This document shows, piece after piece, positions 3,505-20,295 of a stretch of 64,000 nt of DNA. The translations under genes were made by a program, and so were the position numbers. The stretch comes from an uncultured Acidobacteriota bacterium (GTDB taxonomy: Bacteria > Acidobacteriota > Thermoanaerobaculia > Multivoradales > UBA5704). The DNA lies in NCBI GenBank assembly GCA_963761805.1, contig CAVXIV010000003.1:89627-153626 (forward strand). The letters are read 5' to 3'. The notes beneath the pieces were generated by a model. The model saw only the letters and a list, made by a program, of their open reading frames with translations. It made no database searches and was not told the DNA's origin. How positions within the stretch are numbered: the first letter of the stretch is position 1; each line of letters opens with the position of its first letter.

Positions 3505-3572
3505 CGAATGTCCCTGAAGGGACGATCCAAACCAAACCTCCCGGCCATGGAGCATGCCATGGTCTCTGGGAC

Positions 3573-3784
3573 CGCCCGGAACGGGCGAAATTTGAATAGC
3601 CCGGCGCTTCAGCGCCGGGTAGGGGGGCCATCAAATTTCCATCCGCCCTGAATGGGCGGGACCCAACGGTTCAGCCAGCCGGAACGTCCGGTTCCGCCAC
3701 CTTCGGGGCGGGGATGGATAGGGGAGATCCCGTTGACCCGGCGCTAAAGCACCGGGCTATTCAGATTCCGCCCATTCTGGGCGG
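3573..3784. repeat. MITE-like composite repeat, left copy
   Basis: The unit is about 212 nt and is bounded by about 48-nt inverted repeats (ccgcccggaacgggcgaaatttgaatagcccggcgcttcagcgccggg at one end, cccggcgctaaagcaccgggctattcagattccgcccattctgggcgg at the other). It also has an internal hairpin ccgccctgaatgggcgg. The whole unit recurs in direct orientation at 8719-8932. Confidence 0.65.
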
Positions 3785-3805
3785 TCCAGGATGGGGCGAA
3801 ATTTC

Positions 3806-6800
3806 TCACGCCTTCGCCTGCACCCACGGCGGCACGGGCGGCAGATCGAAGAACGACGCGTCGTCCGGCAGCCGCAGACCGGGAACGAACTCATCGAGCT
3901 CGCCTACCTCGAACCGGCACAGGTTGATGGCATGCCAGAACCCGCCGGCGATCACGCCGCCGTATTTGTAGCGGCCATCCGGGGCGAAGGCGACCCAGCC
4001 CTCGGGGAGATGAACGAGAATGACGATGCAGCGGCCGGTGGCGACGTCCCAGAGGCGGACGGTGTTGTCGAAGGAGGCACTGGCAAGGGTGTTTCCCTCG
4101 GGGCTGAACACAACGCTTGAAACGCCCCCCTGGTGTCCTTGGAAAGCTTGGCTCTCTCGCCCGGAGGCGGTATCCCAAAGCCGCACGGTTTTGTCGTCGG
4201 ACGCGCTGGCGAGGGTGTTTCCCTCGGGGCTAAACACTACGCTATTGACGCCCTCCTGGTGTCCCTGGAAAGTTCGGACCTCCCGTCCGGAGGCGATCTC
4301 CCAAAGCCGCACGGTTTTGTCGTCGGATGCGCTGGCGAGGGTGTTTCCCTCGGGGCTAAACACCACGCTATAGACATGTCCTTCGTGTCGTTGGAAAGTC
4401 TGCATCTCTCGCCCGGAGGCAATGTCCCAAAGCCGCACGGTTTTGTCGTAGGAGGCGCTGGCGAGGTTCTTTCCGTTGGGGCTAAACGCCACGCTAGAGA
4501 CGCCCCCATGGTGTCCTTGGAAAGTCTGGATCTCTCGCCCCAAGGCAATGTCCCAAAGCCGCACGGTTTTGTCGTCGGATGCGCTGGCGAGGTTTTTTCC
4601 GTTGGGGCTAAACGCCACACTCCTTACGACGCTTTGGTGTCCTTGGAGAGCCCGGATCTCTTTCCCGGAGGCGGTGTCCCAGAGCCGGACGGTGTGGTCG
4701 TCGAAGGCGCTGGCGAGGGTATTTCCCTCAGGGTTAAATGCTACGCTCATAACCCAATCCTGGCGTACTTGGAAAGCCCGGATCTCTTGCCCGGACGCGA
4801 CATCCCAAAGATGTATAGTGTGGTCGTCGGATGCGCTGGCGAGGGTGTTTCCCTTGAGGGTAAAGGCCATGCTTCTGACGCCCCTTTCGTCTCCTTGGAA
4901 AACTCGGATCTCTCGCCCGGAGGCGATGTCCCAAAGACGCAGGGTGCTGTCGTTTGATGCGCTGGCGAGGGTGTTTCCGCCGGGGCTAAACGCCACGCTC
5001 CTCACATACCAGTAGTGTCCTCGGAAAGTCAGGATCTCTACCCCGGAGGCGGTGTCCCAAAGTCGGACGGTTTTGTCGTCAGATGCACTGGCGAGGATGT
5101 TTCCATTGGGACTGAACGTCACACTATTAACAGGAGCTAGGTGTCCTTGGAAATTCCGGATCTCTCGTCCGGAGGCGGTGTCCCAAAGCCGGACGGTTTT
5201 GTCGTCGGATGCGCTGGCGAGGGTATTTCCCTCGGGGCTAAACACTACGCTTCTGACCCAATCCTGGTGACCTCGGAAAGTCCGAATCTTTCGCCCGGAG
5301 GTGGTATCCCAAAGATGCACGGTGTTGTCGTAGGAGGTGCTGGCGAGGGTGTTTCCTGTGGGGCTAAACACCACGCTTAAAGAGCCTCCCAGGTGTCCTT
5401 GGAAAGCTCGGATCTCTCGTCCGGAGGCGGTGTCCCAAAGCCGGACGGTTTTGTCGTCGGATGCGCTGGCGAGGGTGTTTCCCTCGGGATTGAACACCAC
5501 GCTATTAACCCTCCCTAAGTGTCCTTGGAACGCCCGCATTTCTCGTCCGGAGGCGGTGTCCCAAAGCCGGACGGTTTTGTCATCGGATGCGCTGGCGAGG
5601 GTGTTTCCCTCGGGGCTAAACACCACGCTATTGACGGCTCCCTGGTGTCCTTGGAAAGCTCTGATCAGTTGTCCGCTGGAAGGATCCCAAAGCCGTATAA
5701 GGCCCCCTTCTGCGCTAGCCAGCAGGTCTCTTTTAGGATTCCAAGCCACGGCACTGGAAGGCGAGGAAAACAGGGTCATTCCTTCGGGTGCGTCAGGGAT
5801 TCGTAGAGCGGAGCCAAAGAAGTCGGCGGAGTCGGACTTTTCGTCGAGCGAGGCTCCTATCAGCTTTGCGCGCTCGAAAATCGCGTAACCGAGATCGGTT
5901 CCCCTAAGATCGGCCCCCAGGAGGCGTGCGCGAGTGAGATTGGCGTGCGCAAGGTCGGTTTGGCTTAGGTCGGCACGAGTGAGATCCGCGTCCCGGAGAT
6001 TGGCGTAAACGAGCCGTGCCCTGTGGAGACGGGTCCTGATCAACTTCGCGGAGCTTAGATTCGTTCGCTCCAGGTTCGCGTTTTCCAGATTCTGATCCGA
6101 GAGATCCTGGCCAGTGAGATTCTGGCCTGACAGATCTATGGCCTGATCAAGTTTTTCCTGAAGACGATCGAGGACCAGTAAAGCGTTTTTCTTGGGAATG
6201 TCATCGTTGCCCCGAGTCGTTTGGCGAGCCCAGGCAACGATGTTCTCTCTTCCGGTAAAGCTGGTCAGGAAATCGATCATCAGTAACGAGAGATCCTTCT
6301 CGCCCAGCAGGCTTGAGATGCCTTCCTTCTTGAGCCCCTCGGCTGCCGCCTGAGCCACGAGGAACTCCAGGATAGATTGGTGGAGGAAGGAAAAATTACC
6401 TTCGTCATCTCGGACGAGAAGAGTTCCAGAGCCTACCTGGAAAGCAGCAATCGCTTCATCGAAGACGCGATCGATTTTCTGGATCGCCTCGGCGGCATCC
6501 GCTTGGATCTCCTCCAGATTCACATAGCGATCCGTCTTCTGCCAGAGGCGAACGGCCAATAAGGTGACCGCGTTCCAGCGATCCTGCACGGAGAGGCCAG
6601 GAGGCGCTCCCTTGGGATGGACACGCTCAAATTCATGGACGAGCCAGCGCTCCAAGATGAGCCGGTAGAGCGTGGCCGCTGTAATTACTCCACCGGCAGC
6701 AGCCTCGCAGAGCTGCACCTCGGGAAGGTCGGCGATGAATCCCAGCATGCGGGGATTCTCGGAGAGCCCCAGGAGATCCTTGATGCTGTCAATCAGATTC

Positions 6801-8530
6801 AGCCTGGTGTCCGCTTCGGCTTCGCTCCCGCAGCGGTTGCCGAGGAAAGCACGGATCTGATCGCGGCTGAAGGTCTGGAGGATGCCGATTCTCGATCCTG
6901 AGATCAACTCGACTTCTTCGCCGAGCTTGGAACGGACCTGTTGGTCGGAAAGGAAGTGCTGACGGCGGCTGGTGACGACGATCTTGGCGTCACCCTGGGC
7001 GGCGGAGAGGAGGGTTTCGAAGTGCTCGGCGGCACGGTCGTACGTAACCCGCAAAGCAAGCTCGTCGAAGCCGTCGAAGAGGAGCACGATCCGGCCCTGC
7101 TCCAGCATGTAGCGGAATCTCTCGAAGCGGTAGCCCTCGGGTTCGTTCTGTCCGAAGTGCTGGCCGAGGAGCTGGGCCAGCGTACGGCCCTTTTCAAGGG
7201 ATCTCATCTGGAGGAGGATCGGGACCGGTCCCGATTCCAGGAGCCCCATGCGGCGCGCGAGCTCGTGCAGGAGGAAGGTCTTGCCCGTCCCGAAATCTCC
7301 CAGGATGACGGCGAAGCGCCGGTTGGGCGTGGAGAGCCACTCCTGAAGTTTCGCCAGGGCGTCCGGATGCTCTTCGTTCCGCTCCAGGGAGACCATCCGC
7401 TGGGTCACGTAGAGGCTGGGAGGGTAGAGCTTGTCCCGGGTCAGCTCTTCGGTCTGCCGGCGGAGATAGCCGCGGAAATCGATGAGGCCCATGTATTCGA
7501 TGAGGCTCATCAGGCGGACATCCCTGTTGCTGGCGACTTTCTGGAGGCCCTCCGGAGCCGGAGCGCCGCCGTAGATGAGATAGGAGATCATTCGGGGGTC
7601 GGCTGCGCGGAAGCCTTTATCGATCCGTTCGCGGAAGGCGTTCAGGTCTTCCAGAGAGACGTCATATTCGACGCCCGCGACCGGATAGTCCCGCACGATG
7701 TCTCCGTGCCGGACCGAGACCCGCAGGTAGTCCCAGAAGTCGCCTTCGCCCGAGATCCGCTCGATCTGCGCCGCGGGCTCCCGGAGACGGCAGACCCTCT
7801 CAACACGGGCGAGGAAGTCGTCCCGGATCTCGATAAAGGAGGGTTCGAGATCCTTTGAGGCCTTCGGCATGTAGTAGCCGCGGGTCCGTTTGGAAGAACG
7901 AACGGTGGTGGTCTCGATGACGGGCGCGGGCTCCGGTTCGGTGAAGGCGTTTGGAAATTTCTCGATGTCGAGAGGTGGGACAGCGGGTTCGAAAGGGGAG
8001 GATTCCGACGCGTCCACGATCCTCTTCGCGAAGGCGACGAGGAACTTTTGATAGGTGTCCTTCTGTTCGTCCAGACGCAGGAGGTATTGAAGCCCCTCGT
8101 TCCGGTAGGTCTCACCCAGATCGTCGAAGGAATATTGGATTTCGCGGAACTCCTTCGGGAGCGTCTCGAAGCTGGCGCCGAGGGGTTTCCAGAGGATGGG
8201 CAGGATGAGCTTGGGATTGGAGCCGTGAGAATCCAGGCGCGAGCGGAAGGCGGACCATTCCTTGCCGCAGTACTCGCTGTTGAAGAAGGAGCGGGAGTAG
8301 AGGGGAAGAAGGATCTGGCAGGTGGAGAGCGCCGAAGACAGCTCTTCGGGCCAACGGTCGCCGGTCTTGATTCCGTGGGTATCCCGGAAGCCTACGGGAT
8401 GGCTGGCTGAGAGGCCCATGAGGCCTCGGACTTCTTCGCGGATCTCCTGGAAGAAGCGGCCGAGGTGTTCGTCCGCGTCATTGCGGGCATAGCTGAAGAA
8501 GAAGATGGGACCGTCTTGTTTTAGGGTCAC
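3806..8530 (-). CDS. NLR-like STAND NTPase: TIR, unknown region, NACHT, pentapeptide repeats, 14 WD40 repeats
   Basis: 1574-aa ORF. Residues 7-140 form a TIR domain (FFFSYARND, SEYCGKEW with the conserved Glu). Walker A GDFGTGKT is at aa 411-418 and Walker B-like LLFDGFDE at aa 483-490 (NACHT). Residues about 798-895 carry roughly 19 pentapeptide repeats (ANLER/TNLSS/ADLTR and similar). Residues about 920-1530 form fourteen 42-aa WD40 units (GHxxxVxSVxFSPxGNTLASASDDKTVRLWD). Confidence 0.9.
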   Translation of the reverse strand: MTLKQDGPIFFFSYARNDADEHLGRFFQEIREEVRGLMGLSASHPVGFRDTHGIKTGDRWPEELSSALSTCQILLPLYSRSFFNSEYCGKEWSAFRSRLDSHGSNPKLILPILWKPLGASFETLPKEFREIQYSFDDLGETYRNEGLQYLLRLDEQKDTYQKFLVAFAKRIVDASESSPFEPAVPPLDIEKFPNAFTEPEPAPVIETTTVRSSKRTRGYYMPKASKDLEPSFIEIRDDFLARVERVCRLREPAAQIERISGEGDFWDYLRVSVRHGDIVRDYPVAGVEYDVSLEDLNAFRERIDKGFRAADPRMISYLIYGGAPAPEGLQKVASNRDVRLMSLIEYMGLIDFRGYLRRQTEELTRDKLYPPSLYVTQRMVSLERNEEHPDALAKLQEWLSTPNRRFAVILGDFGTGKTFLLHELARRMGLLESGPVPILLQMRSLEKGRTLAQLLGQHFGQNEPEGYRFERFRYMLEQGRIVLLFDGFDELALRVTYDRAAEHFETLLSAAQGDAKIVVTSRRQHFLSDQQVRSKLGEEVELISGSRIGILQTFSRDQIRAFLGNRCGSEAEADTRLNLIDSIKDLLGLSENPRMLGFIADLPEVQLCEAAAGGVITAATLYRLILERWLVHEFERVHPKGAPPGLSVQDRWNAVTLLAVRLWQKTDRYVNLEEIQADAAEAIQKIDRVFDEAIAAFQVGSGTLLVRDDEGNFSFLHQSILEFLVAQAAAEGLKKEGISSLLGEKDLSLLMIDFLTSFTGRENIVAWARQTTRGNDDIPKKNALLVLDRLQEKLDQAIDLSGQNLTGQDLSDQNLENANLERTNLSSAKLIRTRLHRARLVYANLRDADLTRADLSQTDLAHANLTRARLLGADLRGTDLGYAIFERAKLIGASLDEKSDSADFFGSALRIPDAPEGMTLFSSPSSAVAWNPKRDLLASAEGGLIRLWDPSSGQLIRAFQGHQGAVNSVVFSPEGNTLASASDDKTVRLWDTASGREMRAFQGHLGRVNSVVFNPEGNTLASASDDKTVRLWDTASGREIRAFQGHLGGSLSVVFSPTGNTLASTSYDNTVHLWDTTSGRKIRTFRGHQDWVRSVVFSPEGNTLASASDDKTVRLWDTASGREIRNFQGHLAPVNSVTFSPNGNILASASDDKTVRLWDTASGVEILTFRGHYWYVRSVAFSPGGNTLASASNDSTLRLWDIASGREIRVFQGDERGVRSMAFTLKGNTLASASDDHTIHLWDVASGQEIRAFQVRQDWVMSVAFNPEGNTLASAFDDHTVRLWDTASGKEIRALQGHQSVVRSVAFSPNGKNLASASDDKTVRLWDIALGREIQTFQGHHGGVSSVAFSPNGKNLASASYDKTVRLWDIASGREMQTFQRHEGHVYSVVFSPEGNTLASASDDKTVRLWEIASGREVRTFQGHQEGVNSVVFSPEGNTLASASDDKTVRLWDTASGRESQAFQGHQGGVSSVVFSPEGNTLASASFDNTVRLWDVATGRCIVILVHLPEGWVAFAPDGRYKYGGVIAGGFWHAINLCRFEVGELDEFVPGLRLPDDASFFDLPPVPPWVQAKA

Positions 8531-8635
8531 CTCGAAAAGTTAGCATCTGGAGGGCTGGGTTCCAAGGGGGCCGGCGCTCCGAGAGGGCCGGGAAGATTCC
8601 GGTCTGAGCCGTCCCGCCAGGGACAAGAGGCGGTA

Positions 8636-8663
8636 GCCCCAGGTTTCAACCTGGGGCGGGGAG
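8636..8663. repeat. 29-nt palindromic element, right copy (inverted relative to 3474-3504)
   Basis: ggtagccccaggtttcaacctggggcgg is the reverse complement of the element at 3474-3504. Confidence 0.6.
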
Positions 8664-8718
8664 GGCGGGGTGCCGCGCCGCCTCCGGACACCGCGCCTCC
8701 GGACGCCGGTCCCGGGAC

Positions 8719-8932
8719 CCGCCCGGAACGGGCGGAATTTGACTAGCCCGGCGCTTCAGCGCCGGGTAGGCGGTCCCCCCCAATTCTCATCCGCCCAGAA
8801 TGGGCGGGACCCAACCGTTCAGCCGGGTCGGACCGTCGTGTTCCGCCACCTTCGGGGTGGGGGATGGGGGGAGGGCGTCGGTGACCCGGCGCTGAAGCAC
8901 CGGGCTATTCAGATTCCGCCCATTCTGGGCGG
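8719..8932. repeat. MITE-like composite repeat, right copy (direct relative to 3573-3784)
   Basis: It has the same three sub-elements in the same order as 3573-3784: ccgcccggaacgggcggaatttgactagcccggcgcttcagcgccggg, then catccgcccagaatgggcgggacccaac, then cccggcgctgaagcaccgggctattcagattccgcccattctgggcgg. Identity to the left copy is roughly 85-90% by eye. Confidence 0.65.
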
Positions 8933-9125
8933 GCCTGAATGGGAGGGCGACGGTGTTCAGGCGGATGTGCCGGCCGGGGGCGGCGCGCCCTTCGAAGAGA
9001 CGCCTCGCCGTCCCCATGGCCTCCGCGAGGTGTCGTTGATCGTCTGAGGCGTCTCTACGGCCCTTCGGTGGAGGGGGGAGGTCATCGGATCGTTCTACGG
9101 CTCGGACCTCCTGTAGCATTCCTCC

Positions 9126-9878
9126 ATGCTCTGCCCCAAATGCCAGTTCGAGCAGGCGGACGGACCGGAGTGCGTCCGGTGCGGGGTGCTGTTCAGCCGG
9201 GTGGCCGAGGCGCAGGCGGCCGGCGGACGGATGTACAGGCCGGCGCCGGTCCGGGAAGAGCCGGAACCCACGGCGGCGGAAGAGTGGAAGGCGCTTTTGT
9301 TGGAGGAGGAAGACGCGCGGACCGATCCGGTGCGGTTCTGGGGACGGACGGCTCTCTACGCCATCCTCTTCCTGTGGAGCTGGCGGTTCCTGACGTCCTC
9401 GGTGGCGGAGAACTACGTGGGGGAGTCGTTCCTGCACTGGATCAACCTGCCGTTCCACGAGGCCGGCCACGTGCTGTTCGGGTTCCTCGGCGACTTCGTG
9501 CGGGCGCTGGGCGGGACGCTGGGGCAGCTCCTCATCCCGGCCATCTGCCTGGGGACGTTCCTGCTCAAGAACCGCGATCCGTTCGGCGCTTCGGTGGCGC
9601 TGTGGTGGCTGGCCGAGAACTTCATGGACATCGCTCCCTATATCGCCGACGCCCGGTCGGGACAGTTGCTACTTCTCGGCGGCGTCACCGGCCGGGACGT
9701 GCCCGGCTACCACGATTGGGAGAACGTGCTGGGGGACCTGAACCTCCTCCAGTACGACCAGACGCTGGGCGGTCTGTCGTACGCCTGCGGCCGGCTCCTG
9801 ATGCTCGCCGCCCTGGCCTGGGGCGGGTGGCTGCTGGTGCGCGAGCGGCGCCGTCTTGTGTCCAAGGAAAGCCTTTGA
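9126..9878 (+). CDS. zinc-ribbon membrane protein with an HExxH motif, putative membrane metalloprotease-like
   Basis: 250-aa ORF with an N-terminal CPKC..CVRCG ribbon, several TM helices, and HEAGH within LPFHEAGHVLFGF. Confidence 0.65.
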   Translation: MLCPKCQFEQADGPECVRCGVLFSRVAEAQAAGGRMYRPAPVREEPEPTAAEEWKALLLEEEDARTDPVRFWGRTALYAILFLWSWRFLTSSVAENYVGESFLHWINLPFHEAGHVLFGFLGDFVRALGGTLGQLLIPAICLGTFLLKNRDPFGASVALWWLAENFMDIAPYIADARSGQLLLLGGVTGRDVPGYHDWENVLGDLNLLQYDQTLGGLSYACGRLLMLAALAWGGWLLVRERRRLVSKESL

Positions 9879-10069
9879 AGAAGCTACTTCCGGACGCCCG
9901 TAGCGCCCGGGCGGTACACTGAACAGCACAGAAAAACTTGCAGTTTCGCTCGGACCGCTGATTTCACGCCTCTGCGCACGCTCTTCTAGAACGCTGCGGG
10001 ATGGGCTACGATACGGGCCGCGTCGCGTTTCTACCCATCTTTTACAAGGAGAGTCGAGGTCACACCGAT

Positions 10070-11545
10070 ATGACGGATGTCGTCCAGAAGTTCTGGGGGT
10101 TCTGCCACACGCTGCGGCATGACGGCATCGATTACGGCGATTACATCGAGCAGATCACATATCTGCTCTTCCTCAAGATGGCGGACGAGCGGAGCATCGA
10201 TCTGAGCCGGATGTCGGTGCCGGAGGAAGGGGAGGCGGTCATCGATTGCTCATGGCCGGCGCTGGCGGCGGAGTCGGGTGCGAAGCTGACGGCGCACTAC
10301 GCCGGCGTGCTGCGGACGCTGGGACGCCAGCCGGGTCTGCTGCGAGAGATCTTCGCGGGCGCGTTGTCGCGCTTCAACAATCCCGCGAATCTGAAGCGTC
10401 TGATCGATCTGATCGATGAGACGGAGTGGAGCGCGCTGGAGATCGACCTCAAGGCCGCCGTCTTCGAAGGCCTGCTGGAGAAGGCCGCGAGCGAAGGGAA
10501 GAAGGGCGCCGGGCAGTACTTCACGCCGCGCCGCCTGATCCAGAGCATCGTGCGCTGCGTGCAGCCGGACCCGCGCGGGGAAGCGGACTTCACGATCTGC
10601 GATCCGGCGTGCGGCACCGGCGGTTTCCTGGTGGTGGCCTACGAATGGCTGCTGGCCGCGAGCCGCGAGGACTCCCCCGGTCCCGAGGTGCTGGAGAAGG
10701 TGCGGCGCGGCACGTACTACGGCCAGGAGCTGGTGCCCCGGCCGCGGCGGCTGGCGCTCATGAACCTGTTCCTGCACGGCCTCGAGCCGGAGATCAAGCA
10801 GGGCGATTCGATCTACGACCTGCCGGAAGACCACAGGTTCGACGTGGTGCTGACCAATCCGCCGTTCGGCAACAAGGGCGCGAACCAGGTGCCGGACCGC
10901 GAGGACCTGATCGTCAAGACGTCCAACAAGCAGCTCAATTTCCTGCAGCACGTGGTGACGATGCTGAAGCCGGGCGGCCGCGCGGCGGTGATCGTTCCGG
11001 ACAACTGCCTTTTCGCCGATCAGGCCGGCGAGGTGTTCAAGCTGTTGACGCAGGAGTGCGATCTCCACACGGTGCTGCGGCTGCCCAACGGCACGTTCAC
11101 TCCGTACAGCGCCGGGACCAAGACGAACGTGGTCTTCTTCAAGAAAGGCGCGCCGACGGAGACCGTCTGGGTTTACGACGCGCGCACCAACGTGCCACGG
11201 ATCACCAAAAAGGACCGGCCGCTGACGCAGTCGCATCTCGCCGCGTTCGAGGTCTGCTACGGCATCGACCCGAACGGCAAGTCGCGGCGCTCGCCGGCCG
11301 ATTCGCTGGAGGAGCGCTGGCGGTCGTTTTCGATCGCCGAGGTCCGCGCCCGCGATTTCAAGATCGACGGTCTGAAGTGGCTCAAGGAAGAGTCACGCGA
11401 CGATGATCTGCCGGAACCCGAGGAGCTCGCGGAGGATGCCATCAATGAATTGGAGCGCGCAGTGGACGAATTGACGGCTGTGCTCGACTTGCTGGCGGAT
11501 GACGTAGAGCCGAGGCGCCCGCGCGTCCTCCCGGGTGGCGCGTGA
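10070..11545 (+). CDS. hsdM: Type I restriction-modification system DNA methyltransferase subunit
   Basis: The N-terminus MTDVVQKFWGFCHTLRHDGIDYGDYIEQITYLLFLKMADE parallels the EcoKI HsdM start. SAM motif I is DPACGTGGFL and catalytic motif IV is NPPFG. An alternative upstream start exists at 10001. Confidence 0.9.
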   Translation: MTDVVQKFWGFCHTLRHDGIDYGDYIEQITYLLFLKMADERSIDLSRMSVPEEGEAVIDCSWPALAAESGAKLTAHYAGVLRTLGRQPGLLREIFAGALSRFNNPANLKRLIDLIDETEWSALEIDLKAAVFEGLLEKAASEGKKGAGQYFTPRRLIQSIVRCVQPDPRGEADFTICDPACGTGGFLVVAYEWLLAASREDSPGPEVLEKVRRGTYYGQELVPRPRRLALMNLFLHGLEPEIKQGDSIYDLPEDHRFDVVLTNPPFGNKGANQVPDREDLIVKTSNKQLNFLQHVVTMLKPGGRAAVIVPDNCLFADQAGEVFKLLTQECDLHTVLRLPNGTFTPYSAGTKTNVVFFKKGAPTETVWVYDARTNVPRITKKDRPLTQSHLAAFEVCYGIDPNGKSRRSPADSLEERWRSFSIAEVRARDFKIDGLKWLKEESRDDDLPEPEELAEDAINELERAVDELTAVLDLLADDVEPRRPRVLPGGA

Positions 11546-13671
11546 GCACGGCGTTTTCCGATTGGGAGCTCGGACGCCGCGAAGGCGAGCTTCCCGACGG
11601 CTGGGCGACGACGACGCTCGGCGACATCGTCGTCCATCGCATCGGCGGCGAGTGGGGCGAGAGCCCGGAAACGGTGGCGGCGGACGATCCGGAGTACGTC
11701 CGGGTGCGCGTGATCCGCGGCACGCAGTTCCGGGACTGGGAGCGCGACAAGGGCTCGACGGCGGACGTGCGGGCGGTCAAGCGGTCGAAGCTGGCGAAGC
11801 GCCTGCTGGTCGAAGGGGACTTGGTGGTGGAGATCTCCGGCGGCGGGGCCAGCCAGCCGGTGGGCCGCACGTTGCTGATCGACGAGGAAGCGCTCCGCCG
11901 CGCCGGCATGCCGCTGATCTGCAGCAACTTCTGCCGTCTGGTGAGACTCCACCGCGAGGTCGATCCCGCGTACGTCCACCTGGTCCTTACGTTCCAGTAC
12001 CTGTGCGGCCGGTTCGACGAGTTGCAGACGCAGACGACGAACATCCGCAACCTGAATTTCGACGATTTCCTGGCGAACGTGATCCTGCCGTTGCCGCCGC
12101 TGGCGGAGCAGCGGCGGATCGTCGCGAAAGTCCGCAAGCTCCAGAAACCGGTGGGCACGGCTCGCAAGTGCCTCGCGAAGATGCCGGAGATCCTGCGGCG
12201 CTTCCGCCAGTCGGTGCTCGCCGCGGCGTTCGCGGGCCGGCTGACGGAGAGCTGGCGCGAAGGGCGCCCGCCGGCCGAGTCCCTGGAGGAGAAGCTGCGG
12301 CTGGCGTTCAAGACGCGCCGCGAGGCGTGGGAGATGGCGCGCGAGGAGGCGGAGGCTTTCGACCGCCGGGCGCCGCGCCGGCCGAAGAACCTGGAGCCCA
12401 CGCCGTGGGAGGCGCCGGAGCCGCTGGAGGAGCCGAAGACGCCGGACGGCTGGCTCCTCGTGGCGCTGCACGACGTGGTGCATCGCGCCCAGTACGGACT
12501 CTCCACCAAGGCGGACGCCAACGAGAAGACCGGTATCGCGATCCTGCGCATGGCGAACATCCAGGACGGCCGGATCGACACCTCGGATCTCAAATACATC
12601 CGGCGCAAGGGCCTGGACGTCCAGGGCTACATGGTGCGGCAGGGGGACATCCTGTTCAACCGCACGAACAGCCCGGAGCTGGTGGGCAAGGCCGCGGTGT
12701 TCGACGCCAGCCTCGAGGCGGTGTTCGCTTCCTACGTGGTGCGCGTGGAGTGCGACGAGCGGCTGATCGACAGCCGGTACCTGTGCTGGTGGATCAATTC
12801 GCCGTGGGGCCGGCGGTGGGCGCGCACGGTGCGCACGGAGAGCGTCAGCCAGTCGAACATCAACATTTCGCGGCTGGTGACGATGCCAGTGCCGTTCCCG
12901 CCCCTGGAGGAGCAGCGGCGGATCGTGGAGCGCATCGAGGCGTTTTTCGCCGACGCCGCGAGCGTCGAGGCGAAGGTGGCCTCGTCGGCGGAGCGGGCGG
13001 AGAAGCTGTGGATGACGATCCTGGTGCGGGCGCTGCGCGGTGAGCTGGTGCCGAACGAGGCGGAGATCTCCGGTCCCGAGGGCGGAGGCTTCGAGCCGGC
13101 GGCGGACCTGTTGGACCGGATCGTCGGGGAGCGGCTGGCTTCGCGGCCCGAGAGGATGGAAGCGGTGAGCCCGGAGGAGGGCGTCGCCGAGCCGATCCTG
13201 GCCGCCATCCGCCAGTCCTGCTGGGGCGCCGGCACGATGACCCGCGAGGAGCTGATCCGGAAGGTGGCGGTGCGGCTGGGCTGCCCGCGCTTCGGCAAGA
13301 GCATCCGGGCCCGGCTGGAGCGCCACGTGGAGGTGGCCCTGGCGCGGCGGATCGTGGAGGTCAAGGACGGCCTGCTGTGCGGCGCCACTCCGACCTTCGC
13401 GCGCTACGACTGGAACTTCCTGGTGCGGACGGTCCGCTCCCTGCTGAAGGACGGGGTGGAGCGCAACACCGGGGAGCTGATCAACGCCATGGCCGCCTAT
13501 CTGGGCTACGGGCAGGTCACCATGCCGATCCGCGAGCGCACGGAGCGGATCCTGACCTGGGCGTCCCAGAACGGGCTGGTGGAGATGCGGGAAGGGAAGG
13601 TCCAGCGCACCCCCGGGCTTCCCCCGGCCCCGCCTTTCCCCAACGATCCGGCGCGGCGGGGGCGGAAGTAG
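11542..13671 (+). CDS. hsdS: Type I restriction-modification specificity subunit with a C-terminal extension of about 200 aa
   Basis: The GTG start overlaps the hsdM stop (GTGA). There are two target-recognition halves, each followed by the conserved helix (LPLPPLAEQRRIVAKVRKL and VPFPPLEEQRRIVERIEAFF). The canonical HsdS ends near aa 505, and an extra helical region follows up to aa 709. Confidence 0.85.
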   Translation: MSTAFSDWELGRREGELPDGWATTTLGDIVVHRIGGEWGESPETVAADDPEYVRVRVIRGTQFRDWERDKGSTADVRAVKRSKLAKRLLVEGDLVVEISGGGASQPVGRTLLIDEEALRRAGMPLICSNFCRLVRLHREVDPAYVHLVLTFQYLCGRFDELQTQTTNIRNLNFDDFLANVILPLPPLAEQRRIVAKVRKLQKPVGTARKCLAKMPEILRRFRQSVLAAAFAGRLTESWREGRPPAESLEEKLRLAFKTRREAWEMAREEAEAFDRRAPRRPKNLEPTPWEAPEPLEEPKTPDGWLLVALHDVVHRAQYGLSTKADANEKTGIAILRMANIQDGRIDTSDLKYIRRKGLDVQGYMVRQGDILFNRTNSPELVGKAAVFDASLEAVFASYVVRVECDERLIDSRYLCWWINSPWGRRWARTVRTESVSQSNINISRLVTMPVPFPPLEEQRRIVERIEAFFADAASVEAKVASSAERAEKLWMTILVRALRGELVPNEAEISGPEGGGFEPAADLLDRIVGERLASRPERMEAVSPEEGVAEPILAAIRQSCWGAGTMTREELIRKVAVRLGCPRFGKSIRARLERHVEVALARRIVEVKDGLLCGATPTFARYDWNFLVRTVRSLLKDGVERNTGELINAMAAYLGYGQVTMPIRERTERILTWASQNGLVEMREGKVQRTPGLPPAPPFPNDPARRGRK

Positions 13672-13840
13672 GCCCTCACCTCCCGGCCTCCTCTCCCGAC
13701 CCCTCCCTCCCACCCACACCGGGAGAGGAGGAGAAGTTAGCCAAGAGAAAGGCACGGGGAAGCTTTCCTGACAAACCTTTCCCCCTCTCCCGGTGTGGGT
13801 GGGAGGGAGGGGTCGGGAGAGGGGGCCAGGGGGTGAGGGC
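13672..13840. repeat. inverted pair of GC-rich REP-like elements (R1/R2), a likely bidirectional terminator hairpin
   Basis: R1 (13672-13733) reads gccctcacctcccggcctcctctcccgacccctccctcccacccacaccgggagagg. R2 (13781-13840) is its reverse complement. The pair lies between the convergent hsdS and GNAT genes. Confidence 0.7.
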
Positions 13841-13852
13841 TCGGGCGGGGGC

Positions 13853-14308
13853 CTACTTCAGCCACTCGAACGTGTCGTAGTGCTCGCGGCTCATGCCGAG
13901 CTTCTCGTAGACCGCCTGCGCGGCGGTGTTCCGCTTGTCCACGTAGAGACGGATGCCCTTGAGATCCGGGTCGGCCTCGACGCGGCGGCGCAGGTGCTCG
14001 TAGAGGACGCGGTAGATCCCGCGGCCCCTCTCCTCGGGGATGACGTAGACGGACTGGATCCAGAGGATGACGCCGTTGCGCCAGTCGCTCCACTCGAAGG
14101 TGGTCATCAGGCAGCCGGCGACGCGGCCGTCGCGCTCGGCCACCCAGTAGGCGGCCTTGCGGGGATCGGCGAAGACGGCTTCGACGCCGGCCGTCACGGT
14201 GGCGAGGTCGAGCTCCAGGCCTTCGGTCTCCCGGGCCATGCGGCGCTGGAAGTCGACGAGGACCGCCGCGTCTTCGGGCCGGGCGGGGCGGACCACGGTA
14301 TCAGCCAA
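13853..14308 (-). CDS. GNAT family N-acetyltransferase
   Basis: 151-aa ORF with an acetyl-CoA binding-type segment IQSVYVIPEERGRGIYRVLYEHL and a GNAT-typical length. Confidence 0.85.
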   Translation of the reverse strand: MADTVVRPARPEDAAVLVDFQRRMARETEGLELDLATVTAGVEAVFADPRKAAYWVAERDGRVAGCLMTTFEWSDWRNGVILWIQSVYVIPEERGRGIYRVLYEHLRRRVEADPDLKGIRLYVDKRNTAAQAVYEKLGMSREHYDTFEWLK

Positions 14309-14567
14309 GGGGGGGCGTGTCCTCCGGGTGCAGAGCGGTCTGGAGACGGGCCTCGACTTCGGGCGCGAGCGGCGGGTCCGGGAGGGCGCGCACGGCCCGG
14401 ATGACGAGGCCGAGGTCGTGGAGCAGGCGGCGGCAGCCCTCGCAGCCGCGCAGATGCTCGCCGATCCGCTGCGAGCGGTCCTGACCCGACCAGCCTTCGA
14501 TGTACTCGGTCAGGTCCGCCAGGACCTCGCCGCAATGCAGGCCGGCGACGACCCGTTCATCGTCCAT
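14301..14567 (-). CDS. zf-HC2 type anti-sigma factor
   Basis: 88-aa ORF overlapping the upstream ECF sigma gene. It has an H-x3-C-x2-C motif (HLRGCEGC) plus an N-terminal HC pair. Confidence 0.7.
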   Translation of the reverse strand: MDDERVVAGLHCGEVLADLTEYIEGWSGQDRSQRIGEHLRGCEGCRRLLHDLGLVIRAVRALPDPPLAPEVEARLQTALHPEDTPPLG

Positions 14568-15126
14568 CGGCCTCTCCTTCCCTCAGCCTGGCGACCAGGC
14601 GCAGGCGGGCCCGGTGGAGGCGTGCCCGCACGGCGGCGTTGGTGAGGCCGGTCACGCGGGCGGCTTCGTCCGGCCCCAGCTTCTCGCGTTCGCGCAGGAT
14701 GAGGGCTTCGCGGTCCTCGGGCGCGAGCGCTGCCAGGGCCGCCTCCAGGCTCCGGGCGTCGACGGGCGGGCTGGCGGCTCCGTTGGGGCTGTTCCAGCCG
14801 GCGGCCCGGGCGAGGTCGCGCAGGGGCGTGGCGTCGGCCTCGCGGTCGCGGGGATGCCTCTGCCGGGCGGCGTTGTGGGCGAAGGCGAGGAGCCAGGAGC
14901 GGGCGGAGGGCTCGTCCCGGAAGCGGCCGGCGGCGCGCCGGGCGGCCTGGAAGGTGTCGCGGAGCACCTCTTCGGCGTCCGCGCCGTCGGGGAGCACGGC
15001 CCGCGCGTAGCGGTAGACCGCCGACTGGTGGCGATTCACCAGGCGATCGAACGCGGCGGCGTCGCCGGCCGTGAAACGGCGGAGCAACGTCTCGTCGCTG
15101 ATCCTCGGGTCGTCTGGATCGACCAT
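14557..15126 (-). CDS. ECF-type RNA polymerase sigma factor
   Basis: 189-aa ORF with a region 2 segment (FDRLVNRHQSAVYRYARAVL) and a region 4 HTH (EAARVTGLTNAAVRARLHRAR). Confidence 0.85.
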   Translation of the reverse strand: MVDPDDPRISDETLLRRFTAGDAAAFDRLVNRHQSAVYRYARAVLPDGADAEEVLRDTFQAARRAAGRFRDEPSARSWLLAFAHNAARQRHPRDREADATPLRDLARAAGWNSPNGAASPPVDARSLEAALAALAPEDREALILREREKLGPDEAARVTGLTNAAVRARLHRARLRLVARLREGEADGR

Positions 15127-15171
15127 GTCCTCCGTTCCTGCTGATTGGGACGGAAGACATCTTACACCGGA

Positions 15172-15232
15172 CCCTCACCCCCGGCCCCCTCTCCCGACCC
15201 CTCCCTCCCACCCACACCGGGAGAGGGGGAGG
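15172..15232. repeat. GC-rich REP-like element (R3), single copy
   Basis: ccctcacccccggccccctctcccgacccctccctcccacccacaccgggagaggggg belongs to the same family as R1. Confidence 0.65.
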
Positions 15233-15241
15233 AAAACCGCC

Positions 15242-16102: not shown

Positions 16103-16148
16103 CTCCGTACCTCCTGGGAGGACAGGGATGAGCAAGGGGCGTACCAGG

Positions 16149-16334
16149 GCCCTCACCTCCCCGGCCCTCCTCTCCCGACCCCTCCCTCCCACACCACACC
16201 GGGAGAGGAGGGAGAGGTTAGCGAAAAGAAGCGGCTCCTCGAAGGGCTCCAGGGTTGAGCTTCTCCAATCCCCCTCTCTCCCGGTGGGGGTGGGAGGGAG
16301 GGGTCGGGAGAGAGGGGGCAGGGGGAGTGAGGGC
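16149..16334. repeat. inverted pair of GC-rich REP-like elements (R4/R5)
   Basis: R4 (16149-16218) and R5 (16270-16334) are reverse complements from the same family as R1-R3. They sit immediately after the stop codon of the S9 peptidase gene. Confidence 0.7.
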
Positions 16335-18847: not shown

Positions 18848-18856
18848 TCGTAATCC

Positions 18857-20281: not shown

Positions 20282-20295
20282 TTCGGTCCTCCGTA

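What the first reader, a model, noticed from the sequence alone, without database searches (positions are those of the whole stretch)
3806..8530. Five-module TIR-NACHT-pentapeptide-WD40 protein, a candidate single-gene immune sensor with an unusual pentapeptide insert
The sequence shows these modules in order. First, a TIR domain with the S-x-Y-C-x-x-E context (SEYCGKEW) that holds the catalytic Glu in NAD-cleaving TIRs. Second, an unassigned region of about 170 aa (aa 230-400). Third, a NACHT P-loop NTPase (GDFGTGKT, LLFDGFDE). Fourth, about 100 aa of pentapeptide repeats. Fifth, 14 WD40 blades, enough for two 7-bladed propellers. From established knowledge, bacterial NACHT/STAND proteins with N-terminal effectors and C-terminal repeat sensors act in anti-phage defence, and TIR effectors deplete NAD or make signalling nucleotides. 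The unusual part is a pentapeptide beta-helix, the DNA-mimicking fold of the Qnr/MfpA type, between the NTPase and the propellers. The gene also sits in a foreign-GC island next to a Type I M/S pair. I infer an abortive-infection-type sensor. The pentapeptide module may act as a spacer or as a decoy surface.
Basis: partly seen in the sequence, partly recalled or inferred. Interest (0 to 1): 0.75.

Follow-up and report, generated by a model that had tools for sequence, protein, structure and literature searches.

The report
Bacterial NLR-like TIR-NACHT-WD40 sensor gene
This is an intact single gene for a bacterial relative of animal NOD-like immune receptors, with a TIR enzyme domain at one end and a 14-blade WD40 sensor at the other; it belongs to a large, already catalogued but experimentally untested family in which the "unusual" pentapeptide segment is a standard part.

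Summary
Window 3806-8530 (-) is a 1,574-aa ORF with a TIR domain (E91 at the catalytic Glu position), a NACHT NTPase (Walker A K417; Walker B DGFDE), exactly 20 pentapeptide repeats and 14 WD40 units of 42 aa. The "unassigned" region aa 236-352 is Pfam NA-iREase3, a NACHT-associated inactive restriction-endonuclease domain. A conserved 78-aa C-terminal tail was missed.

The pentapeptide segment is not unusual. The chassis iREase3-NACHT-pentapeptide-WD40-tail recurs in 117 of the 120 best homologues and in at least 454 loci of species-representative genomes, with swapped N-terminal effectors (TIR, metallophosphatase, PNP_UDP, CHAT, SEFIR). The segment is about 100 aa and near neutral, so it looks like a rigid spacer, not a DNA mimic.

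The host is a Thermoanaerobaculia bacterium. The gene sits at the same locus, beside the Type I M/S pair, in a relative. It is mosaic: its 5' half matches that orthologue and its 3' end matches a paralogue.

The most likely function is a single-chain, NLR-type abortive-infection sensor that activates a TIR NADase. This is inferred, not shown. Verdict: a new member of a known kind, of modest interest.

The parts
3806..8530 (-). Whole gene: 1,574-aa TIR / NA-iREase3 / NACHT / pentapeptide / 14xWD40 / C-tail protein (stop codon at 3806-3808)
   Evidence: ORF list and translation. An identical protein, P0001, is in public data. Against the orthologue, omega is 0.15 over aa 1-925.
8003..8509 (-). 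TIR domain, FxsC-type subfamily, aa 8-176. The putative catalytic Glu E91 is the codon at 8258-8260.
   Evidence: NCBIfam FxsC_Nterm 153.5 bits (cutoff 130); Pfam TIR_2 E 5e-11. E86/C88/G89/K90/E91 are invariant in 7 FxsC-type relatives. E91 aligns with the Glu of flax L6 'WCLMEL' and of BtpA/TcpB.
7475..7825 (-). NA-iREase3 domain (NACHT-associated inactive restriction-endonuclease fold), aa 236-352
   Evidence: Pfam PF22739, E 5.9e-31, full-length match 1-118/118. The AF2 model gives pLDDT 84-90 with alpha-beta-beta-beta-alpha-beta topology. The domain is present in 120/120 homologues.
6191..7330 (-). NACHT NTPase module with winged-helix and helical extension, aa 401-780. Walker A GDFGTGKT is at 7277-7300. 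Walker B LLFDGFDE is at 7061-7084. The invariant F715-x-H717-x-S719 motif lies in the WHD.
   Evidence: Pfam NACHT 36 bits (cutoff 26.7). G411/G414/G416/K417 and L483-E490 are invariant in A1. The best Foldseek PDB matches are NOD2 5irm (E 5e-14), NLRP3 and NAIP5.
5846..6145 (-). Pentapeptide-repeat beta-helix: 20 pentapeptides (5 coils), aa 796-895
   Evidence: Pfam Pentapeptide E 2e-35. The register, net charge -1 and family median length of 100 aa come. The models give pLDDT 85-96.
4043..5806 (-). 14 WD40 units of 42 aa (aa 909-1496), predicted to form two 7-bladed propellers. Unit 1 is degenerate; units 2-14 are 78% identical in DNA and 69% in protein.
   Evidence: TRF finds period 126 with 13.0 copies. 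The unit table and entropy are; unit identities are. The AF2 model has mean pLDDT 80.5. The best PDB match is 2ymu, a 'highly repetitive propeller', at E 6e-63 and 47% identity.
3809..4042 (-). Conserved C-terminal tail, aa 1497-1574. It has no Pfam family and is predicted as short beta-strands.
   Evidence: No Pfam hit at E<=1. The tail is detected in about 90 of the 120 homologues. A search of 1.84 billion representatives finds 511 clusters, always at the C-terminus. pLDDT is 50-69.
3560..3810 (.). Downstream copy of a ~235-bp palindromic (long hairpin) repeat that abuts the stop codon
   Evidence: Inverted arms of 76 nt. It is 85% identical to the upstream copy. The RNA fold has dG -159.7 kcal/mol, z -12.3.
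8708..8950 (.). Upstream copy of the same palindromic repeat, 178 nt upstream of the GTG start, in direct orientation to the downstream copy
   Evidence: It is absent at this place in the syntenic relative L038.
10001..13671 (+). Neighbouring Type I restriction-modification M (10001-11545) and S (11542-13671) genes. No R subunit was found among the ORFs scanned.
   Evidence: Pfam N6_Mtase/HsdM_N and Methylase_S. PADLOC MTase_I E 2.4e-157 and Specificity_I E 8e-71. The pair is syntenic in L038.

Best explanation
The gene encodes a single-chain bacterial NLR-related (bNACHT) immune sensor. The proposed mechanism has five steps.

1. At rest, the ADP-bound NACHT module keeps the protein monomeric and the TIR domain inactive.
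2. The C-terminal sensor cassette binds a trigger, either a phage protein or a perturbed host protein, on the variable top faces of the propellers. The cassette consists of a fixed-length pentapeptide beta-helix used as a rigid stalk, a flexible ~30-aa linker, two 7-bladed WD40 propellers and a small conserved tail.
3. Binding releases autoinhibition, and nucleotide exchange drives NACHT oligomerisation.
4. The clustered TIR domains form composite active sites around E91 and cleave NAD+.
5. NAD+ loss stops growth or kills the infected cell (abortive infection).

Shown here:
- All domains are present.
- The catalytic and NTPase residues are retained and invariant.
- The gene is under purifying selection.
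- The chassis is conserved while the effectors are swapped.
- Variability is concentrated at predicted ligand-contact positions of the blades.
- The sensor end of the gene is recombinant.
- Defence genes lie in the neighbourhood.

Inferred by analogy with characterised NLRs, bNACHT proteins and TIR NADases: the ligand, oligomerisation, NADase activity and the phage phenotype.
For: - Domain calls pass curated cutoffs.
- The NACHT-specific Walker B signature D[GAS]hDE is present as D486-G-F-D-E490, and Walker A K417 is invariant in 15 diverse relatives (the signature is defined in bioRxiv 10.1101/2022.07.19.500537).
- The modelled core matches NOD2, NLRP3 and NAIP5.
- E91 is invariant and aligns with the catalytic Glu of L6 and BtpA.
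- Omega against the orthologue is 0.15 over aa 1-925 and 0.05 in the NBD, so the gene is functional.
- Homologues keep iREase3-NACHT-Pp-WD40-tail but carry TIR_2, Metallophos, PNP_UDP_1, TIR+Metallophos, CHAT, SEFIR or HTH at the N-terminus. Kibby et al. list these same effector classes for bacterial NACHT proteins.
- WD40 variability peaks at unit positions 13-15, 17, 33 and 35. pN there is 0.47 against 0.13 elsewhere.
- The propeller region resembles the solved 14-blade, two-propeller WRAP domain 2ymu at 47% identity (PMC9218822).
- Neighbours are a Type I M/S pair here and a PADLOC PDC-S27 candidate at the same spot in the relative.
- No conserved partner gene appears across loci, which fits a single-gene system.
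Against: - There are no experimental data for any member of this clade. The bNACHT proteins tested by Kibby et al. were enterobacterial proteins, and it was not checked whether any of them carries the Pp-WD40 sensor.
- PADLOC v2 has no model that calls this protein. The only hits are a WD40-driven one and a weak mad8. NCBIfam antiphage NACHT models EruA and HyoA score 21-29 bits against cutoffs of 1000-1200.
- The TIR domain was modelled poorly, with pLDDT about 45-60, so active-site geometry is unverified.
- Omega at the WD40 hot positions is 0.6, not above 1, so positive selection is not demonstrated.
- Gene neighbourhoods of relatives are mostly housekeeping genes.
- The family is enriched in Myxococcota and Actinomycetota, which is equally compatible with self/non-self or developmental cell-death roles.
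Confidence: 0.6

Rival explanations
1. The NLR chassis is the same, but the trigger is not phage. The protein would mediate kin or self/non-self discrimination, or programmed cell death in a social or developmental context, like the fungal HET-E/HET-D NACHT-WD40 incompatibility proteins.
For: - The family is concentrated in Sorangium (up to three paralogues among the 80 loci kept in a single genome), Micromonospora, Actinomadura and Streptosporangium.
- The WD40 arrays are internally repetitive, vary at a few positions and show inter-paralogue exchange. This is the pattern described for the fungal nwd genes (PMC4986451).
- PNP_UDP-NACHT-repeat architectures are shared with fungal NLRs.
Against: - The host here is a Thermoanaerobaculia bacterium with no known multicellular habit.
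- The gene lies next to restriction-modification genes and, in the relative, a defence candidate.
- Bacterial NACHT proteins that have been tested protect against phage.
Confidence: 0.12
2. The TIR domain does not deplete NAD+. Instead it makes a signalling nucleotide (cADPR isomer or His-ADPR type) that switches on a separately encoded effector, as in Thoeris.
For: - The catalytic Glu is shared by NAD-depleting and signal-producing TIRs.
- There is a weak NCBIfam hit to Thoeris type III ThcB4 (E 0.0017).
- A CHAT (caspase-like) protein lies about 12 kb away here and about 6 kb from a homologue in another genome.
Against: - No ThsA-like or other conserved partner is adjacent in any of the four loci inspected.
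- In sister proteins the TIR position is taken by direct-acting enzymes such as CHAT, PNP_UDP and Metallophos. This argues that the N-terminal module is itself the terminal effector.
Confidence: 0.12
3. The protein is a non-immune regulatory STAND NTPase or scaffold. Alternatively it is a component of the FxSxx-COOH peptide-maturation system, as the NCBI name 'TIR-like protein FxsC' suggests.
For: - The NCBIfam FxsC_Nterm model matches above its cutoff.
- Public annotation names relatives 'TIR-like protein FxsC'.
- Many bacterial STANDs are transcription regulators (Kaur et al. 2020).
Against: - The FxsC model is a domain-level model that covers only aa 8-176.
- No radical-SAM or Fxs partner appeared among the roughly 35 window ORFs scanned.
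- There is no DNA-binding output domain.
- Effector swapping with CHAT, PNP and Metallophos is typical of conflict systems, not of regulators.
Confidence: 0.08
4. The gene is a decaying or non-functional relic of a horizontally acquired element.
For: - Atypical GC3 of 0.72 against 0.87-0.94 in the neighbours.
- Palindromic repeats flank the gene.
- Highly repetitive bacterial propellers are often found disrupted (PMC9218822).
Against: - The reading frame is intact over 4.7 kb.
- Omega is 0.15, with 0.05 in the NBD.
- All catalytic motifs are intact.
Confidence: 0.03

Closest known systems
Bacterial NACHT (bNACHT / NLR-related) anti-phage proteins, Kibby et al. (bioRxiv 10.1101/2022.07.19.500537; Cell 2023)
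   Same: - Central NACHT module with the D[GAS]hDE Walker B signature.
- Tripartite layout with an N-terminal enzymatic effector (TIR is listed) and a C-terminal 'antigen-receptor type' repeat sensor.
- That survey explicitly lists pentapeptide repeats, beta-propellers and catalytically inactive REase domains as modules, and a 'hybrid' class with a small extra C-terminal domain.
- Pfam NA-iREase3 is named as a NACHT-associated domain.
   Different: - The members tested experimentally were enterobacterial proteins. No member of the iREase3-NACHT-Pp-WD40-tail clade has a reported phenotype, trigger or structure.
- PADLOC and NCBIfam antiphage NACHT models do not call this protein.
Fungal NACHT-WD40 NLRs (Podospora nwd family: HET-E, HET-D, HET-R)
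   Same: - NACHT plus C-terminal WD40 arrays with high internal repeat conservation.
- Variability confined to a few surface positions per repeat.
- Repeat-number variation and exchange of repeats between paralogues.
- Variable N-terminal effectors, including PNP_UDP (PMC4986451).
   Different: - Fungal repeats are about 85% identical in protein; here they are 69%.
- Positive selection is not demonstrated here (omega 0.6).
- The fungal proteins lack the iREase3 domain, the pentapeptide helix and the C-tail.
- The fungal role is allorecognition.
WRAP propellers (Npun_R6612 of Nostoc punctiforme, PDB 2YMU)
   Same: - 14 near-identical WD40 blades at the C-terminus of a bacterial STAND NTPase, folding into two separate 7-bladed propellers (PMC9218822).
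- It is the best structural match to this model, at E 6e-63 and 47% identity.
   Different: - In Nostoc, the WRAP protein and a TIR-STAND protein are two genes of an operon. Here TIR and propellers are in one chain.
- The blades here are older: dS between blades is about 0.4, whereas the Nostoc blades have no synonymous differences.
Plant TIR-NLRs (ROQ1, RPP1) and bacterial TIR NADases (AbTIR, BtpA/TcpB)
   Same: - TIR domain with the S-x-x-C-x-x-E catalytic helix. E91 aligns with the L6/BtpA Glu.
- The logic is that NTPase-driven oligomerisation activates a TIR NADase (established knowledge for ROQ1/RPP1).
   Different: - The NTPase is NACHT, not NB-ARC.
- The sensor is WD40, not LRR.
- The TIR belongs to the FxsC-like subfamily.
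- The activity is untested.
Apaf-1 and bacterial Apaf-1-like STANDs
   Same: - A STAND NTPase followed by two WD40 propellers that could clamp a protein ligand. Apaf-1 is among the fold matches.
- WD40 sensors in defence STANDs are noted in Nature 2026, PMC13581612.
   Different: - Apaf-1 is an AP-ATPase (NB-ARC) with 7+8 blades and a CARD adaptor.
- It has no pentapeptide helix and no TIR.
Qnr / MfpA pentapeptide-repeat DNA mimics
   Same: A(D/N)LXX repeats forming a right-handed quadrilateral beta-helix.
   Different: - Equivalog models score 20-27 bits against cutoffs of 240-500.
- The segment here is only 5 coils and near neutral (net -1; family median 0), and it is embedded in a 1,574-aa chain.
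- Qnr and MfpA are free-standing, dimeric and strongly anionic (established knowledge, Hegde et al. 2005).

Membership tests
NACHT clade of STAND NTPases (bNACHT) | P-loop NTPase with Walker A GxxxxGK[ST] | tested here: met
   GDFGTGKT is at aa 411-418. G411, G414, G416 and K417 are invariant in the 15-sequence alignment A1.
NACHT clade of STAND NTPases (bNACHT) | Walker B signature D[GAS]hDE, as defined in Kibby et al. | tested here: met
   D486-G487-F488-D489-E490 are all invariant in A1.
NACHT clade of STAND NTPases (bNACHT) | Curated HMM match and NLR-like fold including the winged-helix extension | tested here: met
   Pfam NACHT scores 36 bits against a cutoff of 26.7. The best Foldseek hits are NOD2, NLRP3 and NAIP5 at E 5e-14 to 1e-7. 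The invariant F715-x-H717-x-S719-xx-E722 motif resembles the NLR WHD 'FxHxSxQE' motif; that resemblance is from memory and was not structurally verified.
NACHT clade of STAND NTPases (bNACHT) | Protection against phage, dependent on the NTPase and the effector | not testable with these tools
   Needs heterologous expression and phage challenge.
Catalytic TIR (NADase) domains | TIR fold / HMM | tested here: met
   TIR_2 scores 43.5 bits (cutoff 28) and FxsC_Nterm 153.5 bits (cutoff 130). The profile matches the L6, BtpA, AT1G72930 and ROQ1 TIRs in the PDB. The AF2 model of this domain is low-confidence.
Catalytic TIR (NADase) domains | Conserved catalytic glutamate in the alphaC helix | tested here: met
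   E91 is invariant in 7 FxsC-type relatives. It aligns with the Glu of L6 'WCLMEL' and BtpA 'PAREL', and with the Glu of canonical TIR_2 sister proteins.
Catalytic TIR (NADase) domains | NAD+ cleavage activity | not testable with these tools
   Needs a biochemical assay.
NA-iREase3 (NACHT-associated inactive REase) | HMM match and REase-like alpha-beta-beta-beta-alpha-beta core | tested here: met
   PF22739 scores 108 bits (cutoff 27) with full profile coverage. The model topology is H239-250, E255-259, E268-275, E278-287, H293-308, E316-320, with pLDDT 84-90.
NA-iREase3 (NACHT-associated inactive REase) | Loss of the PD-(D/E)xK catalytic residues | tested here: inconclusive
   The invariant columns in aa 236-352 of A1 are only F299, S316, A333 and D351. 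There is no invariant acidic or Lys column in the beta2-beta3 region, aa 255-290. No superposition on an active REase was possible, and a PDB sequence search found nothing.
Qnr/MfpA-type DNA-mimicking pentapeptide proteins | Pentapeptide beta-helix | tested here: met
   PF00805 matches at E 2e-35. There are 20 repeats in register. Model pLDDT is 85-96.
Qnr/MfpA-type DNA-mimicking pentapeptide proteins | Family-specific HMM score; a strongly anionic, B-DNA-sized surface | tested here: not met
   Qnr and MfpA models score 19-27 bits against cutoffs of 240-500. Net charge is -1 over 105 aa, the family median is 0, and the segment has only 5 coils.
WRAP-type highly repetitive WD40 double propeller | Blade-to-blade identity above 60%; 14 blades forming two 7-bladed propellers at the C-terminus of a STAND protein (PMC9218822) | tested here: met
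   Mean identity of units 2-14 is 69%. There are 14 units of 42 aa. The best PDB match is 2ymu at 47% identity. The model has two propeller blocks.
FxSxx-COOH system (FxsC) | Full-length FxsC and linkage to the fxsA peptide and fxsB radical-SAM genes | tested here: not met
   Only the N-terminal domain model matches, at aa 8-176. None of the window ORFs scanned is a radical-SAM protein. Not every small ORF was scanned.
Known defence systems in PADLOC v2 / NCBIfam antiphage NACHT equivalogs (EruA, HyoA) | Model match at system level | tested here: not met
   PADLOC gives only HEAT-ARM_XIII (driven by WD40) and mad8 at E 1.5e-4. EruA scores 29 bits and HyoA 21 bits against cutoffs of 1000-1200.
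Type I restriction-modification (neighbour) | HsdM, HsdS and HsdR together | tested here: inconclusive
   M and S are present. No R subunit was found among the large ORFs scanned across the window.

The most novel reading that the evidence does not exclude
The pentapeptide-WD40-tail unit may be a portable, recombining sensor cassette. On this reading, bacteria diversify NLR specificity by exchanging it between paralogous NLR genes through gene conversion, as the fungal nwd genes do, and by grafting it onto non-STAND outputs. Three observations point this way.

- The window's gene is a chimera. Against the orthologue, dS is 0.22 at the TIR end, close to the 0.13-0.14 of the flanking genes, and rises to about 2 in the pentapeptide region. 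Against a paralogue in the relative's genome, dS is 0.31 and protein identity 95% in the tail.
- The same cassette is found fused to Ser/Thr kinases, TIR+kinase and PNP_UDP without any NACHT.
- The gene is bracketed by two direct copies of a 235-bp palindromic repeat. An end module of that repeat also lies 40 nt upstream of the paralogue, so the repeat might promote such exchange.
Probability: 0.3. Interest if true: 0.55.

Novelty: new member of a known kind. Interest (0 to 1): 0.3.

Why it matters
If it is active, this protein would be a convenient entry point to a very large, untested clade of bacterial NLRs: at least 454 loci in species-representative genomes, with several paralogues per Sorangium genome. 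The clade combines, in one chain, the TIR effector of plant TNLs, the NACHT of animal NLRs and the double propeller of Apaf-1.

The fixed 5-coil pentapeptide stalk and the conserved tail are structural features of its sensor with no assigned role.

The mosaic pattern suggests that sensor specificity is diversified by recombination between paralogues. That would extend to bacteria a mechanism so far documented in fungal NLRs.

None of this changes the basic classification. The finding is an ordinary family member rather than a new kind of system.

Tried and rejected
- Exact look-up of the window's protein on public contigs found nothing on record. The organism was instead inferred from synteny with L038.
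- A word-index search with the C-tail returned only short gene fragments from broken assemblies. The exhaustive HMMER search was needed.
- A PDB sequence search with the iREase segment gave no hit even at E 10.
- An Rfam scan of the whole window found no family, so the palindromic elements match no known RNA family.
- I tested whether the palindrome's 24-nt core is NLR-associated. It occurs in at least 120 metagenome contigs, but none of those loci encodes this family. It is therefore a generic REP/MITE-like module, not a family-specific signal.
- Literature searches for 'NA-iREase', 'FxsC' and 'EruA/HyoA' found nothing usable.
- DNA mimicry by the pentapeptide helix was rejected on charge, length and HMM scores.
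- A recent island insertion was rejected because the locus is syntenic in a relative.
- Positive selection on the WD40 hot positions is not claimed, because omega is 0.6.
- ORF 8939-9922 is treated as non-coding, because omega against L038 is 1.0 and it has no Pfam hit.


Full report
**1. Observation.**
Window 3806-8530 on the minus strand is one uninterrupted ORF of 1,574 codons with a GTG start. The N-terminus MTLKQ[DE]GPIFFFSYAR is shared with two relatives, so the start is probably correct.

The full-length Pfam scan is swamped by WD40 models. Scanned in pieces, the protein gives these matches:

| Module | Residues | Model and score |
|---|---|---|
| TIR | aa 10-118 | Pfam TIR_2, 43.5 bits (cutoff 28) |
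| TIR, FxsC type | aa 8-176 | NCBIfam FxsC_Nterm, 153.5 bits (cutoff 130) |
| NA-iREase3 | aa 236-352 | Pfam PF22739, 108 bits (cutoff 27) |
| NACHT | aa 407-556 | Pfam PF05729, 36 bits (cutoff 26.7) |
| Pentapeptide | within aa 796-895 | Pfam PF00805, E 2e-35 |

The pentapeptide stretch is exactly 20 units in register, aa 796-895. The WD40 region is 14 units of exactly 42 aa, aa 909-1496. At the DNA level it is a 126-nt tandem array of 13.0 copies with 78% matches, preceded by one degenerate unit. After the last blade comes a 78-aa tail, aa 1497-1574, that has no Pfam match.

**2. Structure.**
An AlphaFold2 model of aa 1-905, built with 15 relatives, has mean pLDDT 71.7.
- The iREase3 domain is confident (pLDDT 84-90) and has alpha-beta-beta-beta-alpha-beta topology.
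- The pentapeptide beta-helix is very confident (pLDDT 85-96).
- The TIR domain is poorly modelled.
- Foldseek against the PDB returns NOD2 (5irm, E 5e-14), NLRP3 and NAIP5 as the best matches.

A second model of aa 781-1574 has mean pLDDT 80.5.
- It shows the beta-helix at aa 798-896, then a disordered linker at aa 897-926.
- Two blocks of propeller strands follow, with a confidence dip near aa 1220-1260.
- The tail forms short beta-strands at pLDDT 50-69.

The best PDB match of the second model is 2ymu, "a highly repetitive propeller structure", at E 6e-63 and 47% identity. That entry is the Nostoc WRAP domain, whose 14 blades form two separate 7-bladed propellers at the C-terminus of a STAND ATPase (PMC9218822). 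All other top matches are tandem double propellers, including Apaf-1.

**3. Catalytic features.**
In an alignment of 15 diverse relatives (A1), the Walker A residues G411, G414, G416 and K417 and the whole Walker B block L483-E490 are invariant. D486-G-F-D-E490 fits the D[GAS]hDE signature that Kibby et al. use to separate NACHT from other STANDs. F715-x-H717-x-S719 in the winged-helix region is also invariant.

In the FxsC-type TIR subgroup, E86, C88, G89, K90 and E91 are invariant. A profile of that subgroup aligns ...CGKE... with flax L6 ...WCLME... and with BtpA/TcpB ...PARE..., the glutamate position that is catalytic in TIR NADases by established knowledge. Canonical TIR_2 sister proteins place a Glu in the same column.

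Within the iREase3 domain only F299, S316, A333 and D351 are invariant, and there is no conserved acidic/Lys pair in the beta2-beta3 region. That is consistent with an inactive nuclease but does not prove it.

**4. Is the pentapeptide module unusual? No.**
A search with aa 1-923 found 354 proteins at E<=1e-10. I checked the best 120 with phmmer, using segments of the query:
- iREase3 and NACHT are present in 120/120.
- The pentapeptide segment is present in 117/120.
- The C-tail is present in about 90. The rest are mostly truncated at contig ends.
- The FxsC-type TIR is present in only eight.

The N-terminal module is swapped while the chassis is kept. Sister proteins carry canonical TIR_2, calcineurin-like metallophosphatase, PNP_UDP_1, TIR+metallophosphatase, CHAT, SEFIR/TIR or an HTH. 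All of these join at the same conserved helix, DDFLxRVxxVCRLRE.

They come from Sorangium (up to three paralogues per genome among the 80 loci kept), Thermoanaerobaculia, Micromonospora, Actinomadura, Streptosporangium, Nonomuraea and Streptomyces, with single examples from Planctomycetota, Armatimonadota, Bacteroidota, Verrucomicrobiales and Thiotrichales.

Kibby et al. already list pentapeptide repeats, beta-propellers, inactive REase, TIR, PNPase, calcineurin-like phosphoesterases and caspases as modules of bacterial NACHT proteins. They also describe a "hybrid" class that has a small extra C-terminal domain after the repeats. The architecture is therefore catalogued. I found no report of an experiment on this clade.

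**5. What the pentapeptide helix probably does.**
Its length is nearly constant in the family (median 100 aa, or 5 coils). It is electrically near neutral: -1 here, family median 0, range -6 to +6. Qnr and MfpA models score 19-27 bits against cutoffs of 240-500. This argues against DNA mimicry and for a rigid spacer of fixed geometry between the NACHT helical domain and the flexibly linked propellers.

The helix also travels with the sensor rather than with the NTPase. An exhaustive HMMER search with the tail found 511 clusters, always at the C-terminus. Of the 64 long proteins among them:
- 56 carry iREase3-NACHT-Pp.
- 5 carry Pp-WD40-tail with no detectable NACHT. Pfam scans of three of these showed a Ser/Thr kinase, TIR+kinase and PNP_UDP at the N-terminus.
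- 1 has an AAA ATPase with WD40-tail.

Sensors shared between STAND and non-STAND defence proteins are a known theme, for example Avs7 and Dsr1 (PMC13581612).

**6. The WD40 sensor.**
Units 2-14 are 69% identical in protein, above the 60% threshold that Pereira and Lupas use for "highly repetitive" propellers. Variability is concentrated at unit positions 13, 14, 15 and 17 (just after GH) and at 33 and 35 (the S-x-D-x-T turn), with entropy 1.35-2.65 bits. From my knowledge of WD40 structure these are top-face, ligand-contact positions.

Non-synonymous divergence at these six codons is 0.47, against 0.13 at the other 36. However, omega is 0.6, so positive selection is not demonstrated.

In the family, 14 units is the mode (55 of 92 full-length proteins), then 7-8 units (13) and 3 units (8). 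Some members have near-identical blades, with lag-42 identity of 0.81-0.86.

**7. Genomic setting.**
The flanks at window 9099-17692 are 92.5-94.7% identical to contig DASVAS010000063.1 of Thermoanaerobaculia bacterium SMAG_U1959 (L038). The same gene sits there, next to the same Type I M and S genes. The window is therefore from a close relative of that Acidobacteriota MAG, and the gene is not a recent insertion.

Its composition is nevertheless atypical. GC is 0.60 and GC3 is 0.72 (0.66 in the Pp/WD part), against GC3 0.87-0.94 in the neighbours.

HsdM and HsdS are confirmed by PADLOC at E 2.4e-157 and 8e-71. No HsdR was found among the ORFs scanned.

Between the R-M genes and the NLR gene, the relative carries a 505-aa ATPase_2/DUF234 gene that matches PADLOC candidate PDC-S27 at E 1.5e-54. 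In the window that gene is absent, and a 525-bp stretch replaces it. The locus therefore behaves like a small variable defence hotspot.

The neighbourhoods of three other family members share no conserved partner gene. That fits a single-gene system.

**8. Mosaic evolution.**
Synonymous divergence was measured against two genes of the same related genome: the orthologue P0002 in L038, and the paralogue P0003 on contig DASVAS010000018.1, locus L204. P0002 ends inside the WD40 array at a contig end, so its tail is unknown.

| Region | dS vs orthologue P0002 | dS vs paralogue P0003 |
|---|---|---|
| Flanking HsdM / HsdS | 0.14 / 0.13 | - |
| TIR | 0.22 | 0.98 |
| iREase3 | 0.31 | 1.43 |
| NBD | 0.54 | 1.16 |
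| WHD/helical | 1.09 | 1.66 |
| Pentapeptide | 1.96 | 0.97 |
| Last two blades + tail | - | 0.45 |
| Tail alone | - | 0.31 |

Protein identity shows the same crossover:

| Compared with | TIR | NBD | Pentapeptide | Tail |
|---|---|---|---|---|
| Orthologue P0002 | 0.90 | 0.94 | 0.70 | not available (contig end) |
| Paralogue P0003 | 0.50 | 0.66 | 0.79 | 0.95 |

The gene is therefore a recombinant. Its 5' half follows the orthologous locus and its 3' end follows a paralogue. This resembles the inter-paralogue repeat exchange described for the fungal nwd genes (PMC4986451). Formal recombination tests were not run.

**9. Flanking repeats (side observation).**
Two direct copies of a ~235-bp palindromic element bracket the gene, at 3560-3810 (abutting the stop codon) and 8708-8950.
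- The copies are 85% identical to each other.
- Each folds into a long hairpin, with dG -160 kcal/mol and z -12.
- Its core motif occurs nowhere else in the 64 kb: 8 strand matches against 0.18 expected.
- The element is absent from L038.
- A 57-nt end module lies 40 nt upstream of the paralogue in L204.
- The 24-nt core is common in soil and peat metagenomes, in at least 120 contigs. None of those loci encodes this family, and Rfam has no model for it.

It is most simply a REP/MITE-like element. Whether it helps cassette exchange is open.

**10. Mechanism and verdict.**
The best-supported reading (confidence 0.6) is a single-chain NLR-type abortive-infection sensor. Trigger binding on the variable faces of the double propeller would relieve autoinhibition and drive NACHT oligomerisation. 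Proximity would then activate the TIR NADase through E91.

The domains, the motifs, purifying selection (omega 0.15 overall and 0.05 in the NBD), effector swapping and the defence context are shown. The ligand, oligomerisation, NADase activity and the phage phenotype are inferred.

The rivals are allorecognition or social cell death (0.12), a signalling TIR with a remote effector (0.12), a non-immune or FxsC role (0.08) and a decaying relic (0.03).

The finding is real but ordinary. It is a new member of a known, catalogued, experimentally untested clade. The feature that made it look special, the pentapeptide insert, is a family constant.

Noticed in passing
window 3560-3810 and 8708-8950: Two direct copies (85% identical) of a ~235-bp palindromic, hairpin-forming element bracket the NLR gene exactly. 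The core motif CCCGGCGCTTCAGCGCCGGG occurs nowhere else in the 64-kb window. No Rfam family matches. The 24-nt core is common in soil and peat metagenomes but is not linked to NLR genes there.
   Followed up: partly
L204 5908-5964 (contig DASVAS010000018.1 of Thermoanaerobaculia SMAG_U1959): A 57-nt end module of the same palindromic element (93-95% identical) lies about 40 nt upstream of the paralogous NLR gene P0003.
   Followed up: partly
window 8574-9098 versus L038 8482-9955: The syntenic relative carries a 505-aa ATPase_2/DUF234 gene between the R-M genes and the NLR gene; it matches PADLOC defence candidate PDC-S27 at E 1.5e-54. In the window this gene is replaced by 525 bp that contain the palindromic element.
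   Followed up: partly
window 10001-13671: The Type I R-M methylase and specificity genes have no detectable restriction (HsdR) subunit among the ORFs scanned. The S protein is unusually long (709 aa), and PADLOC specificity models cover only aa ~15-537.
   Followed up: partly
window 8939-9922 (+): A 327-aa ORF between the NLR gene and hsdM has no Pfam hit, and its dN/dS against the relative is about 1.0. It is probably not a real coding sequence in this frame.
   Followed up: partly
window 20296-23130 (-): A 944-aa protein with a C-terminal CHAT (caspase-like) domain (E 3.5e-58) lies about 12 kb from the NLR gene. A CHAT protein also lies about 6 kb downstream of homologue P0009 in another genome (L201 20444-22711).
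   Followed up: no
window 30141-35837 (+) and 41356-44925 (+): Two very large proteins each carry two Ser/Thr kinase domains. One also has PD40 beta-propeller repeats, and the other has an N-terminal AMP-binding fragment.
   Followed up: no
proteins P0167, P0217, P0220, P0187: The pentapeptide-WD40-tail cassette also occurs without any NACHT, fused to TIR+Ser/Thr kinase (P0167), a Ser/Thr kinase alone (P0217) or PNP_UDP (P0220). P0187 has an AAA ATPase with WD40-tail.
   Followed up: partly
L038 10001-13366 and proteins P0121-P0157: The orthologue's contig ends inside the WD40 array. Dozens of public 'proteins' of 60-150 aa are just the last blade plus the tail. The repeats routinely break metagenome assemblies, so repeat counts in databases are unreliable.
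   Followed up: no
window 16335-21136 (-): A run of S9/S15-type serine peptidase genes with PD40 propeller repeats follows the defence genes. This marks the return to ordinary high-GC3 host genes.
   Followed up: no
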